A stretch of DNA of 27,695 bases, taken from a virus. Shown piece after piece: positions 1,023 to 27,669 of this stretch (the first letter of the stretch is position 1; every line of letters starts with the position of its first letter). The notes beneath the pieces were generated by a model. The model was not told the DNA's origin. It did not search any database and saw only the letters and a program-made list of their open reading frames with translations. The DNA lies in the IMG/VR virus record IMGVR_UViG_3300045988_163776, positions 128,001 through 155,695 of that record, one strand, 5' to 3'. A program made the position numbers and the translations under genes.

Positions 1023-1051
1023 TTGATATTTTATAAAAAATATTATATAAT
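1023..1051 (+). promoter_or_regulatory. sigma70-like promoter, conserved phage early promoter family
   Basis: TTGATA, 17 nt, TATAAT, followed by ATATATATAATAAAAGAAG. Member of a 13-copy family in this window. Confidence 0.7.
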
Positions 1052-1091
1052 ATATATATAATAAAAGAAGTTGAAAAGAGGTTGATTTAAA

Positions 1092-2735
1092 ATGTCATTG
1101 ATGAATATGATTAGTAAAGAGGAACAAGAGTTAATTTCAGCTTATAGAGAAGCTTATATAGGAAGTCATACAGAATCACTTTGTGATAATGAATATCTAT
1201 TAAGAGTATGGCAAGAAGAAAAATCTAAATTCCTTGCTAAAATTTTTAAAGATAGCCTAATTCTTAAAAAAGAAGTTGTAGTTAAGTTACCACATGAAAT
1301 GATCGCCGTAGAAATGGATGGAAAATTATGTTATTATCCTCGTAGAGATGGTTATGTGGATCCTGGAACTCCAAAAGGCTTTATAAGACAGCTAATGAAC
1401 TTAGTCGATGAATTATGTGAAAAAGATTGTATTGATTGGGCTTTAAGAAATGCCATGCGTAACATAAATGGAGATCTTTTAGCAGACAATAGATTTATTG
1501 ATAGATGGGATCCAGATCATAAAAGAAATTTTAAAGTGACTCATCCTTCAGATAAAAGAAAAAGTTTCACTATTTCTTATGGAATGAAATTAATGAAAGT
1601 ATATAATAAATTTGCTACTGCTTTTGGCATTGCAGGTTTTGATGAATATGCAGTCGTTCATTCTCAAATTTTAAATACGACTAATCTTAAAGGAACGCTA
1701 TGCTTGTCAATACATCCTTTAGATTATATGACAATGAGTGATAACAACTCAAATTGGACTTCTTGTATGTCTTGGGAAGGTGACGGCGAGTATAGACAAG
1801 GCACTGTAGAAATGATGAACTCTGATTGTATTGTTGTAGGTTACCTTGAGTCTTCAGCTCCTATGAATATATTAGGAGCAAAATGGAATAACAAAAAATA
1901 TCGTAGTTTATACTGCGTTAATGAAGATGTTATAGCCAATATAAAAGGTTACCCTTATAAAAGCTTAGAGATTGATAAAATAGTTATTGATTGGCTAAAA
2001 GAATTAGTTGAAGCCAATACAGATATCAAATATGAGAGTGATATTATAGATTTTAATAGTGACGAAAATGATTATTATTTAGATTTTCATACTCATATTA
2101 TGTATAATGACTGCTGGAATACAAAAGGCTGTAGAACATGTCATATAGGCTATGTAAGCAATTTAGCATCACATAATTGTTATGTTCATTATTCTGGACC
2201 TGATGAATGCATGTGTTGTGGAGCAGTTGGAGTTATGGAAGAGTGCAGTGAAAGTGATTTGGTTTGCGATTCCTGTGATGGCTATGAGTATTGCGATCAT
2301 TGTGGAGATAGATGCAACTTTGGTGAAACTCATCATATTGATGGATATTCTCTTTGCAGTTACTGCTATGATGAAGCTGTTGCGCAAGACTTCTTTGATG
2401 AAACAGAGCATTTAGAAAATAATATGGTACAAGCAAAAATTAATGTTGACGCTGAAAGCGGAATGTTCATTCGCTCACATTCTGTTTATAGTATTTTTAT
2501 TGATATAAAAAATATAGAAAAATTTATCTCTGTATGCCCTAAAATTTTTAAAGAAGAAAAAATGTCTTCTTATAAGATCTTTTCTGAAGAAAGTTTTTAT
2601 TATGAAGGGAAAATAATAGAGATTAACTGGAATGACCTTTCTGATTATGGTTGGAAATTTTTCTTTAAAGAAAATGATGCGATGATTGAATCAGTTAAAT
2701 TATTCTGTAAACGTTATGAAGAAGCTAAAATTTGA
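1092..2735 (+). CDS. Cys-rich zinc-ribbon protein, paralog family A (function unknown)
   Basis: 547 aa ORF with an RBS. Central motif LCLSIHPLDYMTMSDNNSNWTSC...GEYRQG...WNNKKYR is shared with the 5291-6667 product. C-terminal cluster of CxxC pairs (CMCCGAVG...CDSCDGYEYCDHCGDRC...CSYC) indicates zinc ribbons. Confidence 0.8.
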   Translation: MSLMNMISKEEQELISAYREAYIGSHTESLCDNEYLLRVWQEEKSKFLAKIFKDSLILKKEVVVKLPHEMIAVEMDGKLCYYPRRDGYVDPGTPKGFIRQLMNLVDELCEKDCIDWALRNAMRNINGDLLADNRFIDRWDPDHKRNFKVTHPSDKRKSFTISYGMKLMKVYNKFATAFGIAGFDEYAVVHSQILNTTNLKGTLCLSIHPLDYMTMSDNNSNWTSCMSWEGDGEYRQGTVEMMNSDCIVVGYLESSAPMNILGAKWNNKKYRSLYCVNEDVIANIKGYPYKSLEIDKIVIDWLKELVEANTDIKYESDIIDFNSDENDYYLDFHTHIMYNDCWNTKGCRTCHIGYVSNLASHNCYVHYSGPDECMCCGAVGVMEECSESDLVCDSCDGYEYCDHCGDRCNFGETHHIDGYSLCSYCYDEAVAQDFFDETEHLENNMVQAKINVDAESGMFIRSHSVYSIFIDIKNIEKFISVCPKIFKEEKMSSYKIFSEESFYYEGKIIEINWNDLSDYGWKFFFKENDAMIESVKLFCKRYEEAKI

Positions 2736-2760
2736 AAAAGTTAAAAAAATAATGTATAAT
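2732..2760 (+). promoter_or_regulatory. sigma70-like promoter (conserved family)
   Basis: TTGAAA, 17 nt (AAGTTAAAAAAATAATG), TATAAT. Confidence 0.65.
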
Positions 2761-2804
2761 AATTATAGAAAATAAATAATAAAGAAGAAAGGATGTTGAA
2801 AAAC

Positions 2805-3224
2805 ATGACTGAGAAGACAAAAAAGATAACAAAGAGAGACATTTATGAAGCAATTGCGCAGGCAATGGAAACTGGTGAAAGCACCATTGAGCCACAAGAA
2901 ATCATTAATTTCTGTCACAAGGAAATTGCAGCCCTTGACCGCAAAGCTGAAAAAGCAAGAGAAAATGCAGCGAAAAAACGTGAAGAGGGAGATGCTCTAC
3001 TAGAGCTTGTAAGAAATGCTCTTACAGACGAATATTCAATTATCGCTGATATTACGGCTCGTATTGAAAGTGATGAAGTCGAAGTAACAGTAGCCAAGGT
3101 TCAGTATAGACTTAATCAGCTAATCCAAATGGGTGAAGCTGAAAAGTCAGACGTTTCAGTCGGAGAAACTGGTTCAAAAAGAACTCTTAAAGGCTATCGA
3201 AAAATAGCAACTATTGAAGACTAA
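2805..3224 (+). CDS. hypothetical coiled-coil protein
   Basis: ORF 2793-3224. The ATG at 2805 has better spacing from RBS AAAGGA than the ATG at 2793. Charged, helical, K/E/A-rich. Ends TAA. Confidence 0.6.
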   Translation: MTEKTKKITKRDIYEAIAQAMETGESTIEPQEIINFCHKEIAALDRKAEKARENAAKKREEGDALLELVRNALTDEYSIIADITARIESDEVEVTVAKVQYRLNQLIQMGEAEKSDVSVGETGSKRTLKGYRKIATIED

Positions 3225-3235
3225 TTATTGTTTAA

Positions 3236-3270
3236 AAAGGAGTAGAAATTTTATCTACTCCTTTTTTTTC
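3236..3270 (+). terminator. rho-independent terminator
   Basis: GGAGTAGAAATTTTATCTACTCC hairpin followed by TTTTTTTTC. Confidence 0.8.
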
Positions 3271-25759: not shown

Positions 25760-26342
25760 TCCAGAAATAGCTTGTTATATGACAGATTTAGAAGATTTAC
25801 AAAATATCTATGCAAATAAAATAAACAATTATTTTGCAACAGATAAAATAGCAAGCAAATATTATGATTGGGTAAATAATAAAGAACATATAGAACCAAC
25901 ATATGCTTATACATCAGAGGAAATTATTGATATATTATGCTTTAATGAAGATAACAATGGTATCGTGTCAGTATTGCCATTATTTGTATACCTTACCATA
26001 AAAACGAAAAATTGGTCTGTAAAAATAGAAAATATTACAGATGAAATTATTGCTTATACAGAAGCTAATGTAAATGGCTTTAATAATGATTTCCTTAATT
26101 TAATAAAAGAGCAAGTGTTAGAACAATATCCAGGTTTATGTAAGTTTGTTGAGACCGTAGGCGTAAAAGAAGATAATAATACTCAAGAGGGTATTTCTAT
26201 TAATGACAATTTTCTTGATAAATTTGCTTACTATTGGAAAAATGATTGTATGGTAAATATAGAGTTTCCAAGTAAATCTGCTAATGTTGATTTAACTTCT
26301 GGATTTACAGAAGAAGAAAAAAAACGAGCAGAACAAGTTTAG
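25725..26342 (+). CDS. hypothetical protein co-transcribed with the radical SAM gene
   Basis: RBS GAGGAGG then ATG 25725, overlapping the end of the rSAM gene. 205 aa, acidic. The track start at 25707 lacks an RBS. Confidence 0.55.
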   Translation: MSYIVGGTTYPDPEIACYMTDLEDLQNIYANKINNYFATDKIASKYYDWVNNKEHIEPTYAYTSEEIIDILCFNEDNNGIVSVLPLFVYLTIKTKNWSVKIENITDEIIAYTEANVNGFNNDFLNLIKEQVLEQYPGLCKFVETVGVKEDNNTQEGISINDNFLDKFAYYWKNDCMVNIEFPSKSANVDLTSGFTEEEKKRAEQV

Positions 26343-26355
26343 GAGTTGCTAAAAA

Positions 26356-27525
26356 ATGAATCAGATAAGTGATAAAAAAGACTGCCGAGGATGCATGAGC
26401 TTTTGTATGCAAGGTAAATAGTTGGCAGTAGCTGGACATGATGAAAGTCATACCGGTTGGAAAAAATGGAAAGATTTAACTTCTGGTAAGGATGGAACTA
26501 TTATTTGTAGTAAAGATGGATTATCTGCTACCAATCAAACAGACTTAATAAATTTTATCAGAGATGTTTATAAAACTGGAGTGTATAATCCAGAAAAAGG
26601 AAATATGTTTGATGAAGTTCCAAAAAATTTATCACACGTTTATGATTCTCCTTCCTCTAAAAGTGTTCCAAATTCATTAAAAGTTGCAGAAGAAGGAGTT
26701 TCAAGCGATGCTGTTATATATGCAAAACATTATAATAATTTTTTAGAAGCTTTAGCATCTAGTCAAACCAACCCTATTTCAGTAGATAGCAAAGGAGAAC
26801 CTTTAAAAGATAAAAATAAAAATCCTATTAATAATAACGCTACTGAATCTGGCCCAGTCGCTGGTTGGTGGACTAATGCAGATCCTATTGTCGTATCTGG
26901 ATAGAAATATCCGAATAGCGATTTAAGCTTAATAAAAGCTGACTTATATAAAAGTTTATATGAAAAAGCAAGTAAATTAATGTATCATCCTCATCAATGT
27001 TGTATTTGCAATGTATATGAGGGTGGAGATTGGTTAGAAATAGTTAAAGATATTGGCACAGCCTGTTATAATTATGGGATTGTATATAATAACCATGCAG
27101 GAGGTGCTGTTGATACTGCAAAAGGCTATCATGTAACTTTAAGTCGTTTTGACTGTTCTGGATACGTAGGAGCTTGCTTAGCTGTTTTTAATGCTGTTGA
27201 AAATGGTAGTAGTAGCACTAACATTTCTGGATATGGAGGAACTTCAGACGCTTACTTAGAAGATGGTTCTGGGATTCCCTCAAGCTTAAAAAAATATTTT
27301 TCTTTTTCAAGTTCACTTCCTTCTAAACCTGGTTCTATTTTAGTAAGATGGGCAAAATCTGGAGTAGACCCTTTTGGCAATAGAACAGAACACGTTGAGA
27401 TACGAGGAGAAAATGGTATTTGGAGTGGTGGAGGTCGTGGAGGCCCCTCTGGAAATCTTATGATGGGTAAAATGGATACTGGTGGCACTACCTGTAATTT
27501 TGGTTGGGAATATACAGGAGGATAA
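26356..27525 (+). CDS. CHAP-domain cysteine peptidase/amidase (tail-associated lysin-like) with 2 in-frame TAGs
   Basis: RBS AGGAG then ATG 26356. TAG at 26419 and 26902 joins track ORFs 26422-26904 and 26980-27525, which share one frame. FDCSGYVGACL (catalytic Cys) and TEHVEI (His) are CHAP-domain signatures. Gly-rich C-terminus. Ends TAA. Confidence 0.65.
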
Positions 27526-27541
27526 TAAATAAAAATTTTAT

Positions 27542-27570
27542 TTGAAAAATTAAAAAATATATTATATAAT
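27542..27570 (+). promoter_or_regulatory. sigma70-like promoter (conserved family)
   Basis: TTGAAA, 17 nt, TATAAT, then ATATATATAATAAAAAAAG. Confidence 0.65.
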
Positions 27571-27640
27571 ATATATATAATAAAAAAAGAAAAGAGATAA
27601 TTAAAATTTATGACTAATATTTTTAATAATAATTAAAAAT

Positions 27641-27669
27641 TTGATTTTTTTAAAAAAATATTATATAAT
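27641..27669 (+). promoter_or_regulatory. sigma70-like promoter (conserved family)
   Basis: TTGATT, 17 nt, TATAAT, then ATATATGTAATAAAGATAAAAAAC. Identical in its downstream part to the 7101 copy. Confidence 0.65.

What the first reader, a model, noticed from the sequence alone, without database searches (positions are those of the whole stretch)
1023..27669. Family of at least 13 near-identical sigma70 consensus promoters with an extended conserved discriminator/initial transcribed region
The copies are at 1023, 2732, 4190, 7101, 7172, 7250, 9036, 13025, 13388, 16788, 27542 and 27641, with a diverged one at 3340. All have TTGAAA or TTGATT, an exactly 17-nt A/T spacer ending ATATTA, then TATAAT followed by ATATAT(G/A)TAATAAAGA. 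Conservation beyond the hexamers suggests a shared regulatory input, for example a phage or host factor binding the spacer or +1 region, or a conserved 5' leader. They drive both the early protein genes and individual tRNAs, including the suppressor tRNA.
Basis: seen in the sequence. Interest (0 to 1): 0.6.

Follow-up and report, generated by a model that had tools for sequence, protein, structure and literature searches.

The report
Repeated early promoters in gut phage
Twelve near-identical copies of a strong bacterial-type promoter, all pointing the same way, sit in front of the standard-code genes and RNA genes (including the stop-codon suppressor tRNA) of an uncultured 156-kb human-gut phage; this is the usual way large phages of Gram-positive bacteria capture the host RNA polymerase, so it is largely ordinary, although a whole lineage of related phages shares the conserved stretch that runs past the start site.

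Summary
The repeat family is real. Twelve + strand copies of TTGAWW-17 nt-TATAAT carry shared spacer, discriminator and +1..+16 sequence. Leave-one-out PWM scores are 24-56 bits, against at most 11.5 bits in random sequence. There are none on the - strand and none in the TAG-recoded part of the window (about 17-27.5 kb). Three corrections apply: 3340 is only a generic promoter-like site, 13388 should read 13381, and "all copies" overstates the uniformity.

The window comes from a 155.7-kb TAG-recoded human-gut phage distantly related to Herelleviridae. In 51 related phage loci (GC 30-46%), 209 non-redundant promoters share one architecture from -39 to +16: A-tract spacer, TRTG "-16" element, ATATAT discriminator, purine +1, and a C-free purine-rich RTAAGATAAAGAAAG. 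The +1..+14 consensus is the same before protein genes and before RNA genes. The extension is therefore selected across the lineage and is not just a Shine-Dalgarno site.

Best reading: these are host primary-sigma early promoters with an optimised spacer, discriminator and initial transcribed sequence, as in Kayvirus, SPO1 and T5. A separate factor-binding or RNA-leader role is not excluded. This is a new member of a known kind.

Side finds:
- a covarying AAGAC...CAGCAA...GUCUUG tRNA-mimic RNA module
- an HDV-like ribozyme candidate after the suppressor tRNA
- neighbouring DUF2828/vWA and vault-protein-like genes

The parts
1023..1073 (+). Family promoter: TTGATA-17-TATAAT, predicted +1 about 1058, leads to CDS with ATG at 1092 (547 aa)
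   Evidence: LOO 50.2 bits; ORF
2732..2782 (+). Family promoter (diverged): TTGAAA-17-TATAAT overlapping the stop of the upstream ORF, leads to CDS at 2793
   Evidence: LOO 25.9 bits
4190..4240 (+). Family promoter: TTGATT-17-TATAAT, leads to M28-like peptidase CDS (ATG 4269 in the ENA gene call)
   Evidence: LOO 36.9 bits
7101..7151 (+). Family promoter, first of a tandem trio (spacings 71 and 78 nt) ahead of the tRNA array; preceded by a strong hairpin
   Evidence: (53.6 bits)
7172..7222 (+). Family promoter, second of the trio
   Evidence: 38.7 bits
7250..7300 (+). Family promoter, third of the trio; tRNA-like gene 7309-7378 starts about 24 nt after the predicted +1
   Evidence: 55.8 bits
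9036..9086 (+). Family promoter, leads to a small ORF (9093/9099-9254) and then tRNA-Glu at 9388; preceded by a terminator-like hairpin
   Evidence: (55.9 bits)
13025..13075 (+). Family promoter running straight into the AAGAC...CAGCAA clamp element 13062-13173, which encloses a tRNA-like gene
   Evidence: 28.7 bits
13381..13431 (+).
   Evidence: 42.8 bits
16788..16838 (+). Family promoter (most diverged; has TG-extended -10). It heads a compact unit: leader hairpin 16829-16877, suppressor tRNA(CTA) 16887-16973, HDV-like ribozyme candidate, terminator
   Evidence: 24.2 bits
27542..27592 (+). Family promoter, first of a tandem pair (99 nt apart); followed only by an 8-codon mini-ORF
   Evidence: 53.4 bits
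27641..27686 (+). Family promoter cut by the window end. In the 155.7-kb contig it leads to a clamp element, tRNA-Leu(taa), a second clamp element and the DUF2828/vWA gene
   Evidence: 53.8 bits
3340..3368 (+). Generic sigma70-like site TTGACA-17-(TG)TATTAT before the CDS at about 3390; not a member of the family
   Evidence: below 5 bits with the family PWM
16829..16877 (+). Leader hairpin of the suppressor tRNA unit: AAGACACAG...CAGCAA...UUGUGUCUUG (10-bp closing helix)
16887..16973 (+). Amber suppressor tRNA (anticodon CTA) with long variable arm and G73

Best explanation
These are the phage's early-class promoters, read by the host RNA polymerase carrying its primary (sigma-A / sigma-70 type) sigma factor. 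Each copy heads a short transcription unit in the standard-code part of the genome: early protein genes, tRNA and tRNA-like RNA genes, and the amber suppressor tRNA.

The sequence shared beyond the two hexamers is most simply part of the promoter itself:
- a 17-bp A/T spacer with a T-tract then an A-tract
- the Gram-positive '-16' TRTG element (present in relatives, replaced by TATTA in this phage)
- an easily melted ATATAT discriminator
- a purine start 7 nt after the -10
- a C-free, purine-rich initial transcribed sequence that also supplies the 5' end of a very short leader (SD at about +12, ATG at about +25 for CDS)

Shown: the repeats, their geometry, strand bias and placement, their restriction to TAG-free DNA, and lineage-wide conservation. 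Inferred: recognition by host holoenzyme, early timing, the start site, and that the extension acts on promoter strength or escape rather than through a separate factor.
For: 1. Geometry: 12 of 12 copies have TTGAWW, exactly 17 nt, then TATAAT.
2. Statistics: 13 against 0.5 expected matches, all on the gene strand; leave-one-out PWM 24-56 bits against at most 11.5 bits at random.
3. Placement: all are intergenic or at ORF ends, 22-65 nt upstream of an ATG with SD, a tRNA or an RNA leader.
4. Class: none lies in the 17-27.5 kb block whose genes carry in-frame TAG. Peptidase_C1+SLH matches run across 5 TAGs; the 810-aa gene has 9 TAGs.
5. Lineage: the ATPase inside the tRNA array has 42% aa identity and the same placement as in Enterococcus Schiekvirus (Herelleviridae). 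In Kayvirus, 58 early promoters of the form TTGACW-17-TRTGN-TATANT were mapped by RNA-seq (PMC7698491).
6. Selection: relatives have 298 TTGAnn-17-TATAAT on the gene strand against about 5 on the other strand. 209 non-redundant copies are conserved continuously from -39 to +16, even in 42-46% GC genomes.
7. The -6..+14 consensus is the same for 101 CDS-driving and 62 RNA-driving promoters.
8. Initial transcribed sequences and spacers are established determinants of promoter output (PMC5961368, PMC12464699, PMC3130263).
Against: - No transcription start, host or polymerase has been tested, and the host is unknown.
- The -35 is TTGAWW rather than TTGACA, and this phage lacks the TG of the -16 element.
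- The cultured relative Porthos has no TTGAnn-17-TATAAT at all in 41 kb around the same genes, so the extended motif is not a general Herelleviridae trait.
- The exact 26-mer is almost absent from 185,579 bacterial and archaeal species genomes: 4 hits, at least two of them matching phage contigs. It is therefore not copied from common host promoters.
- Position-specific conservation out to +16 is stronger than is usually reported for early phage promoters and could reflect an additional signal.
Confidence: 0.78

Rival explanations
1. The conserved discriminator and +1..+16 segment is a DNA-level regulatory site. Examples are an operator for a phage or host factor that shuts early transcription off, or a -10-like element that holds sigma in a promoter-proximal pause for loading an antiterminator, as at lambda PR'.
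For: Conservation is position-specific from -6 to +16 in 209 promoters. In this phage the -10 lies in a perfect 14-bp palindrome, ATATTAT|ATAATAT. The consensus +2..+7 TAAGAT in relatives keeps the two key -10 bases, A at position 2 and T at position 6. Sigma70-dependent pausing of this type is established (PMC4005639).
Against: The palindrome is broken in most relatives, where G-14 (64%) faces A-9. In the window the +2..+7 hexamer is TAATAA, with no T at position 6, so the pause-element reading is not consistent across the family. No candidate regulator was identified. Known Q-type systems use one late promoter, not a dozen early ones.
Confidence: 0.12
2. The conserved transcribed segment works as RNA. 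It would be a common 5' leader (RUAAGAUAAAGAAAG) that stabilises the transcripts, enhances translation, or marks them for a phage or host RNase or RNA-binding protein.
For: The same +1..+14 sequence precedes both CDS and RNA genes. It is C-free and purine-rich and merges either into the SD (AAAGGAG) or into the AAGAC clamp of structured tRNA-mimic RNAs. A conserved putative RNA-binding DUF2828/vWA protein is encoded in the same arrays.
Against: The evidence cannot separate an RNA role from an initial-transcribed-sequence effect on escape. The segment is unstructured and short, and no binding or cleavage data exist.
Confidence: 0.2
3. The copies are kept alike mainly because they act as portable homology patches for recombination (T4-type PeSL-like cassettes) that shuffle early genes and tRNAs. 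Promoter activity would be secondary.
For: There are 50-76 nt repeats at many module boundaries. Identical promoter-plus-gene cassettes occur in several different IMG/VR contigs. An assembly broke inside one copy. PeSL precedent: PMC2839356, PMC4122927.
Against: Within-genome identity of the non-hexamer positions is only slightly above between-genome identity (0.64 against 0.58), so conservation is lineage-wide rather than concerted within a genome. Only 2 of 12 copies have an adjacent stem-loop. No indel endpoints at promoters were demonstrated.
Confidence: 0.1
4. The sites are read by a phage-encoded sigma factor or RNA polymerase rather than by the host primary sigma.
For: The extended motif is almost absent from bacterial genomes and is specific to one phage lineage.
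Against: The hexamers and 17-bp spacing are those of primary sigma factors. Known phage sigma or RNAP promoters (SPO1 gp28 and gp33/34; Kayvirus late TGTTATATTA, PMC7698491) look different. The sites head the standard-code genes, which must be expressed before any phage factor exists.
Confidence: 0.05
5. Chance similarity in A/T-rich, low-complexity intergenic DNA.
For: The window is 70% A+T, and the generic promoter scan finds 130 sites against 112 expected.
Against: Matches are 13 against 0.5 expected. PWM scores are 24-56 bits against at most 11.5 at random. Strand bias is complete. The motif recurs in genomes with 42-46% GC.
Confidence: 0.01

Closest known systems
Kayvirus (Herelleviridae) early promoters, e.g. 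Staphylococcus phage vB_SauM-515A1 (PMC7698491)
   Same: Dozens of strong primary-sigma promoters per genome (58 mapped), a 17-bp spacer, consensus -10, host-dependent transcription of most non-structural units, and an absent or different signal for late genes.
   Different: Kayvirus has TTGACW and a TRTGN extension. This phage has TTGAWW and TATTA (no TG), although its relatives do have TRTG. No conserved +1..+16 sequence was reported for Kayvirus. This phage is TAG-recoded and only distantly related (ATPase 42% identity to Schiekvirus).
SPO1 early promoters of the host-takeover module (own knowledge: Stewart et al. 1998, 2009)
   Same: Clustered, closely spaced or tandem sigma-A promoters driving many short early units in a large virulent phage of a Firmicute.
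   Different: The SPO1 promoters do not share this spacer, discriminator or ITS consensus. That comparison was not tested here on sequence.
T5 early promoters (PN25 family) and the role of the initial transcribed sequence (own knowledge: Gentz & Bujard 1985, Kammerer et al. 1986; PMC12464699, PMC5961368)
   Same: A phage early promoter family with homology extending from upstream of -35 to about +20, an A/T-rich spacer and a purine-rich transcribed region that sets promoter escape and output.
   Different: Different host group (E. coli) and different consensus. For T5 the ITS effect has been measured; here it is only inferred.
PeSL promoter-early/stem-loop cassettes of T4-type phages (PMC2839356, PMC4122927)
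   Same: Short repeated early-promoter cassettes at the borders of small accessory genes.
   Different: A PeSL is a composite of a terminator stem-loop and a promoter. Here only 2 of 12 copies have an adjacent hairpin, and recombination at the repeats was not shown.
Sigma70-dependent promoter-proximal pause elements (lambda PR'; PMC4005639)
   Same: A -10-like hexamer in the first 10 transcribed bases (TAAGAT in relatives).
   Different: The match is inconsistent in this window (TAATAA). There are many early promoters rather than one late promoter, and no Q-like factor was identified.

Membership tests
Primary-sigma (sigma70/sigmaA) promoter | -35 hexamer close to TTGACA | tested here: met
   TTGAAA, TTGATT or TTGATA: 4-5 of 6 positions, with TTGA invariant in 12 of 12
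Primary-sigma (sigma70/sigmaA) promoter | -10 hexamer TATAAT at 17 +/- 1 bp from the -35 | tested here: met
   TATAAT 6/6 and a spacer of exactly 17 in 12 of 12
Primary-sigma (sigma70/sigmaA) promoter | Located upstream of and co-directional with genes | tested here: met
   All on the + strand; 22-65 nt before an ATG, tRNA or RNA leader
Primary-sigma (sigma70/sigmaA) promoter | Primary transcript 5' end about 7 nt downstream of the -10; initiation by host holoenzyme | not testable with these tools
   No transcriptome, host or enzyme is available
Herelleviridae early promoter class (Kayvirus type) | TRTGN extension immediately upstream of the -10 | tested here: not met
   The window has TATTA or TATAA. 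TG is at the extended position only in 16788 and displaced by one base in 2732. Relatives have T-17 89%, T-15 90%, G-14 64%
Herelleviridae early promoter class (Kayvirus type) | Many copies heading early (non-structural) units only | tested here: inconclusive
   16 copies in 41 kb, all in TAG-free DNA. Timing is inferred, not measured
Herelleviridae early promoter class (Kayvirus type) | Phage belongs to Herelleviridae | tested here: inconclusive
   ATPase 42% and DUF2828 35% identical to Schiekvirus Porthos, with the same placement in the tRNA array. No other protein tested from the window matched the 41-kb Porthos region. Structural genes were not examined
T4-type PeSL cassette | Early promoter fused to a conserved stem-loop or terminator | tested here: not met
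   Strong upstream hairpins occur only at 7101 and 9036; the other 10 are no better than shuffles
Sigma-dependent pause element | -10-like hexamer (A at position 2, T at position 6) within about +1..+10 | tested here: inconclusive
   TAAGAT is the consensus in relatives. The window has TAATAA, or TATAAT/TGTAAT at -1..+5
YrlA (Y RNA-like, Rfam RF02553), for the clamp elements downstream of promoters | Score at or above the Rfam gathering threshold (69 bits) | tested here: not met
   31.5 bits at 13747-13851 and 32-35 bits in relatives. Some such hits merely span two adjacent tRNAs
YrlA (Y RNA-like, Rfam RF02553), for the clamp elements downstream of promoters | Circularly permuted tRNA topology: terminal stem, T-arm, closed acceptor stem, D-arm, terminal stem | tested here: met
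   The order is seen directly in the long elements (e.g. L035 9521; window 13733-13854). Topology as described in bioRxiv 10.1101/312249
YrlA (Y RNA-like, Rfam RF02553), for the clamp elements downstream of promoters | GNCGAA Ro60-binding motif and a neighbouring TROVE (Ro60) gene | tested here: not met
   The motif here is C(A/U)GCAA. The neighbouring gene is DUF2828+DUF7788/vWA, with no TROVE hit in Pfam or by profile against PDB
Theta (minimal HDV-like) ribozyme, for 16975-17024 | Cleavage-site G within +/-5 nt of a tRNA 3' end; nested P1/P2/P3 with G.U at the base of P1; C at the first J4/2 position | tested here: inconclusive
   G16975 is 2 nt after G73. P1 is 16975-80 / 17002-07 (G.U), P2 is 16983-88 / 17019-24, P3 is GCC/GGC, and J4/2 is CUAA; all read by eye. 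Rfam gives only CPEB3 at 15.7 bits, E 0.14. P1.1 and P4 are unclear. Criteria from PMC10879173

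The most novel reading that the evidence does not exclude
The segment conserved from the discriminator to +16 is not only a strength determinant. It would be a lineage-specific signal, read on DNA or on the nascent RNA by a phage factor, that couples all standard-code units to one switch. Those units include the suppressor-tRNA unit, with its clamp-hairpin leader and 3' ribozyme. The switch would time the change of genetic code and the processing or protection of the phage's tRNA and tRNA-mimic RNAs.
Probability: 0.15. 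Interest if true: 0.6.

Novelty: new member of a known kind. Interest (0 to 1): 0.35.

Why it matters
For the promoters themselves the value is practical. They give a precise PWM (-39..+16) that marks the host-polymerase-dependent, standard-code transcription units in a large and still uncultured group of TAG-recoded gut phages. They also supply a set of very strong, compact promoter-plus-leader cassettes for low-GC Firmicutes.

Biologically, the suppressor tRNA has its own promoter of the same class as the standard-code genes. That unit is bracketed by a structured leader, an HDV-like ribozyme candidate and a terminator. This makes the proposed 'code switch times late genes' model concretely testable: is the suppressor made from the start of infection, or is it held back after transcription?

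The promoters also point to abundant tRNA-mimic RNA modules, which may be the more original feature of this locus.

Tried and rejected
- Megablast of 12 kb against 50,697 phage records gave no match.
- The search for related loci with the 547-aa early protein found no relatives.
- Scanning the cultured relative Porthos (41 kb) for the motif and for clamp elements found none, so the motif is not a general Herelleviridae feature.
- Test of a host-promoter origin: the 26-mer occurs in only 4 of 185,579 species genomes, and at least two of those hits match phage contigs.
- The palindromic-operator idea fails because the palindrome is not conserved in relatives.
- The SD-only explanation of the downstream conservation is rejected, because RNA-driving promoters share the same sequence.
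- The PeSL composite is rejected for 10 of 12 copies.
- Concerted evolution within the genome as the main cause is weak (0.64 against 0.58 identity).
- No late-promoter motif upstream of recoded genes could be read off by eye.
- A link between DUF2828 and Ro60/TROVE was not found, either by single sequence or by profile against PDB, and the literature on DUF2828 was uninformative.
- The Rfam gathering scan of the window reports only tRNAs.

Full report
**Observation**

The window is 27,695 bp with about 30% G+C and positive GC skew throughout. The larger ORFs, all genes called on the source contigs, and all 16-19 tRNA genes in 7.3-17 kb lie on the + strand.

- The common form is TTGA(AA/TT/TA), exactly 17 nt, TATAAT.
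- In most copies this is followed by ATATAT(G/A)TAATAAA(G/A)A.

The statistics are clear:
- TTGAnn-N17-TATAAT occurs 13 times on the + strand and never on the - strand. First-order Markov sequences give 0.53 for both strands together, maximum 3.
- The 22-mer downstream motif with up to 3 mismatches occurs 9 times against 0.06 expected.
- The repeat finder collects 11 copies of 69-76 nt into one family.
- A leave-one-out PWM covering -39..+16 scores every one of 12 copies at 24-56 bits. The best random score is 11.5 bits.

Three corrections apply:
- The copy listed at 13388 starts at 13381.
- 3340 (TTGACA-17-TATTAT) and 10603 are generic promoter-like sites that the family PWM does not recognise.
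- "All copies" overstates uniformity. 2732, 4190, 13025 and 16788 diverge in the spacer or after the -10.

**Where the window comes from**

Exact-protein look-ups place the window on two human-gut metagenome assemblies of run ERR636392 (PRJEB7369): a 33.4-kb contig and a 155,711-bp contig. The last 9 nt of the window differ from the long contig. The short contig simply stops inside the repeat.

There is no nucleotide match to 50,697 phage records. Two proteins link the phage distantly to Herelleviridae:
- The AAA ATPase embedded in the tRNA array is 42% identical to that of Enterococcus Schiekvirus phages, where it sits in the same position.
- A peptidase is about 40% identical to Enterococcus phage proteins.

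**The genome is TAG-recoded**

Reading TAG as sense fuses fragments into long ORFs:
- 18434-20881 carries 9 TAGs and is called as 810 aa in the ENA code-15 annotation.
- 15030-16001 carries 10 TAGs.
- 23291-24241 carries 5 TAGs. It matches Peptidase_C1 (residues 46-232) and SLH (260-298) across its TAG positions.

The larger ORFs in 1-14.5 kb have no in-frame TAG within their predicted coding regions. The promoter family is confined to this TAG-free DNA plus the unit of the amber suppressor tRNA. None lies between about 17 and 27.5 kb.

Extending 5.7 kb to the left and 8 kb to the right on the long contig adds four more + strand copies:
- Three lie before further standard-looking genes.
- One, at window coordinate 33127, lies before a vault-protein-like gene.

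**What each copy drives**

| Copy | Downstream target |
|---|---|
| 1023, 2732, 4190, 9036 | SD plus start codon, 26-45 nt after the predicted +1 |
| 7101, 7172, 7250 (tandem trio) | tRNA-like gene at 7309 and the tRNA array |
| 13381 | tRNA-Phe |
| 13025, 16788, 27641 | Structured RNA element beginning AAGAC |
| 27542 | Only an 8-codon ORF and the next promoter |

In 16788 that RNA element is the leader of the suppressor tRNA(CTA), 16887-16973. The suppressor unit is compact: promoter, 10-bp-stem leader, tRNA, an HDV-like ribozyme candidate starting 2 nt after G73, then a terminator at 17089-17111.

**Is the extension selected?**

The exact 26-mer ATATTATATAATATATATRTAATAAA occurs in 28 IMG/VR stretches. 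In nearly all of them a TTGAnn hexamer lies 17 nt upstream of the TATAAT, and the downstream genes differ. It occurs in only 4 of 185,579 bacterial and archaeal species genomes. All four are gut MAGs of Bacillota-type lineages, and at least two match phage contigs. It is therefore a phage-lineage feature, not a copy of common host promoters.

Using the ATPase as a handle, I fetched 51 related loci (29-57% aa identity, 30-52% G+C):
- They carry 298 TTGAnn-17-TATAAT on the gene strand and about 5 on the other strand.
- After removing copies with similar flanks, 209 promoters remain and give a logo conserved without interruption from -39 to +16.

| Position | Conserved feature |
|---|---|
| -30..-27 | T-tract |
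| -23..-20 | A-tract (about 90% A) |
| -17, -15, -14 | T-17 (89%), T-15 (90%), G-14 (64%), i.e. the Gram-positive TRTG "-16" element |
| -6..-1 | Discriminator A-T-W-T-A-T |
| +1 | Purine (96%) |
| +3, +4 | AA (about 88%) |
| to +16 | Purine-rich, with C below 3% (consensus RTAAGATAAAGAAAG) |

This holds in genomes with 42-46% G+C, so it is not base composition.

The -6..+14 consensus is the same for 101 promoters that precede an SD and start codon and for 62 that precede RNA genes. The extension is therefore not merely a ribosome-binding site.

Identity of the non-hexamer positions is only slightly higher within genomes (0.64) than between them (0.58). The main force is common selection across the lineage, not recent duplication or gene conversion within one genome.

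The window's own dialect lacks G-14. That creates a 14-bp palindrome around the -10, which relatives do not keep.

**Mechanism**

The simplest reading is the classical one. These are early promoters for the host polymerase with its primary sigma factor, and every kinetic step has been optimised.

The closest mapped analogue is Kayvirus, with 58 early promoters of the form TTGACW-17-TRTGN-TATANT (PMC7698491). The roles of the spacer and of the initial transcribed sequence in promoter output are established (PMC3130263, PMC5961368, PMC12464699). T5 and SPO1 early promoter families are older precedents (own knowledge).

Rivals not excluded:
- a DNA-level operator or sigma-dependent pause element
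- an RNA-level common leader
- a PeSL-like recombination role

Only 2 of 12 copies have the adjacent hairpin that a PeSL needs. The pause-element match is inconsistent within the window. Recognition by a phage-encoded sigma is unlikely, given the hexamers and the need to express these genes first. None of this has experimental support here, and the host is unknown.

**Side finding: a structured RNA module**

Many promoters in this lineage run into AAGAC-N4-5-C(A/U)GCAA ... N4-GUCUUG.

I defined the 3' partner only by the nearest GTCTTG, without using complementarity. On that basis:
- The four variable positions are all paired in 53 of 107 elements and 3 of 4 are paired in 40 more. Shuffled partners give 6% and 24%.
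- On 73 distinct sequences, 91.6% of cells pair against 76.8% in shuffles. Two positions show all four Watson-Crick types with 73/73 and 72/73 paired.
- G.U outnumbers A.C by 35 to 6, which argues for RNA on the + strand.
- Of 81 elements, 42 are followed by a tRNA gene 5-14 nt after GUCUUG.
- Of 93 elements, 55 enclose a tRNA-arm-like hairpin, against about 5 expected. Most are T-arms. Some are anticodon-arm-like with loops such as CUUUUAA.

The long versions have the circularly permuted tRNA order described for YrlA Y RNAs. However, they reach only 31-35 bits against a gathering score of 69, and they have CAGCAA rather than GNCGAA (PMC4201824).

The window holds five of these elements: 7710-7775, 13062-13173, 13262-13362, 13733-13854 and 16829-16877.

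Just right of the window lie three genes:
- a DUF2828+DUF7788 (vWA) gene
- an SLH protein gene
- a gene with MVP shoulder and vault repeat domains

The DUF2828 gene is conserved at 35-96% identity in 32 of the other loci held, including Porthos, where it is annotated as an RNA-binding protein. Phage MVPs have been reported (bioRxiv 10.1101/2023.11.10.566534). I could not show that DUF2828 is Ro60-like.

**Verdict**

The promoter interpretation is well supported in silico, but only in silico. The extended conservation is real and lineage-wide, but it is most economically explained by known promoter determinants.

This is a new member of a known kind. Its interest is moderate to low by itself. 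It is raised somewhat by the link to the genetic-code switch and by the RNA modules the promoters lead into.

Noticed in passing
window 7710-7775, 13062-13173, 13262-13362, 13733-13854, 16829-16877; also L088 about 13180-13250 and many sites in L001-L083: A family of structured RNA modules, AAGAC-N4-5-C(A/U)GCAA ... N4-GUCUUG. The closing helix covaries (91.6% of cells paired; G.U 35 against A.C 6). The modules enclose tRNA-derived parts: T-arm, closed acceptor stem and D-arm in permuted YrlA-like order, or only an anticodon-arm-like hairpin, or a whole odd tRNA. About half are followed by a tRNA 5-14 nt later. No match reaches an Rfam gathering threshold.
   Followed up: partly
window 16975-17024: HDV-like (theta-type) ribozyme candidate starting 2 nt after the discriminator of the suppressor tRNA. 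P1 is GUCAUC/GAUGAU with G.U at its base, P2 is GUAGAA/UUCUAC, P3 is GCC/GGC, and J4/2 is CUAA. Rfam gives only a weak CPEB3 hit (15.7 bits, E 0.14).
   Followed up: partly
window 15030-16001, 18434-20881, 20935-21540, 23291-24241, 26353-27525: In-frame TAG codons (10, 9, 3, 5 and 2) are read as sense. The Peptidase_C1+SLH match spans the TAGs, and collagen repeats read GPXG and GIXG. This is a TAG-recoded phage, and the larger ORFs in 1-14.5 kb are TAG-free.
   Followed up: yes
window 16887-16973: The amber suppressor tRNA has a long variable arm and G73, which is class II and Ser-like. The collagen-repeat context of the TAGs (GPQG-like) would suggest Gln. The identity of the inserted amino acid is unresolved.
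   Followed up: no
window 27687-27695: The last 9 nt differ from the 155.7-kb contig of the same phage (5 mismatches). They copy the sequence after the 7101 promoter, which points to a contig-end artefact inside the repeat.
   Followed up: yes
L088 13638-15146, 15291-18047, 18685-21162 (window coordinates about 28146-35670): Directly downstream of the 27641 promoter unit lie three genes: DUF2828+DUF7788 (vWA-like, 502 aa), an SLH-domain protein (918 aa), and an 825-aa protein with MVP shoulder (1e-23) and vault repeat domains. DUF2828 is conserved at 35-96% identity in 32 of the other loci held and in Enterococcus phage Porthos, where it is annotated as an 'RNA binding protein'.
   Followed up: partly
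L074 13947-14571, L057 13421-14012, L035 5975-6319, L068 8853-9191, L074 15254-15555: Related phages carry ROOL RNA and tmRNA genes inside the same promoter-rich tRNA arrays (up to about 39 tRNAs per 20 kb).
   Followed up: no
window 9464-9831 (ORF 9486/9624-10130): The 5' part of a GIY-YIG/NUMOD1 homing-endonuclease gene next to tRNA-Glu is 70-83% identical at nucleotide level to 13 related loci. Nucleotide matches of core genes such as the ATPase to other relatives are about 66-69%. This suggests a mobile gene.
   Followed up: no
window 20883-20914 and 24305-24336: Two other promoter-like sites in the recoded block share TTTTTTGATAT(A/G)ATAAA (TG-extended -10, with TTGCGT or TTGACT 17 nt upstream). 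They lie before the collagen-like gene and about 170 nt upstream of the radical-SAM gene, and may represent a different promoter class.
   Followed up: no
window 7380-7472, 11037-11109, 13082-13156, 7309-7378: Odd tRNA predictions: a 93-nt tRNA-Pro(cgg), a tRNA with a 4-nt anticodon (gatt), one with a 2-nt anticodon call, and a low-scoring tRNA-like gene found by Rfam only. Some of these lie inside the clamp elements.
   Followed up: no
window 7046-7085 and 9008-9035: Strong hairpins (-15.8 and -14.8 kcal/mol against about -4.8 for shuffles) sit directly upstream of promoters 7101 and 9036, giving terminator-promoter junctions at two of the twelve copies.
   Followed up: partly
L026 (IMGVR_UViG_3300045988_155865) against window 22411-27695 and beyond: A 125-kb IMG/VR contig is about 95% identical at nucleotide level over 10.5 kb. 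A near-conspecific genome therefore exists for comparative work.
   Followed up: no
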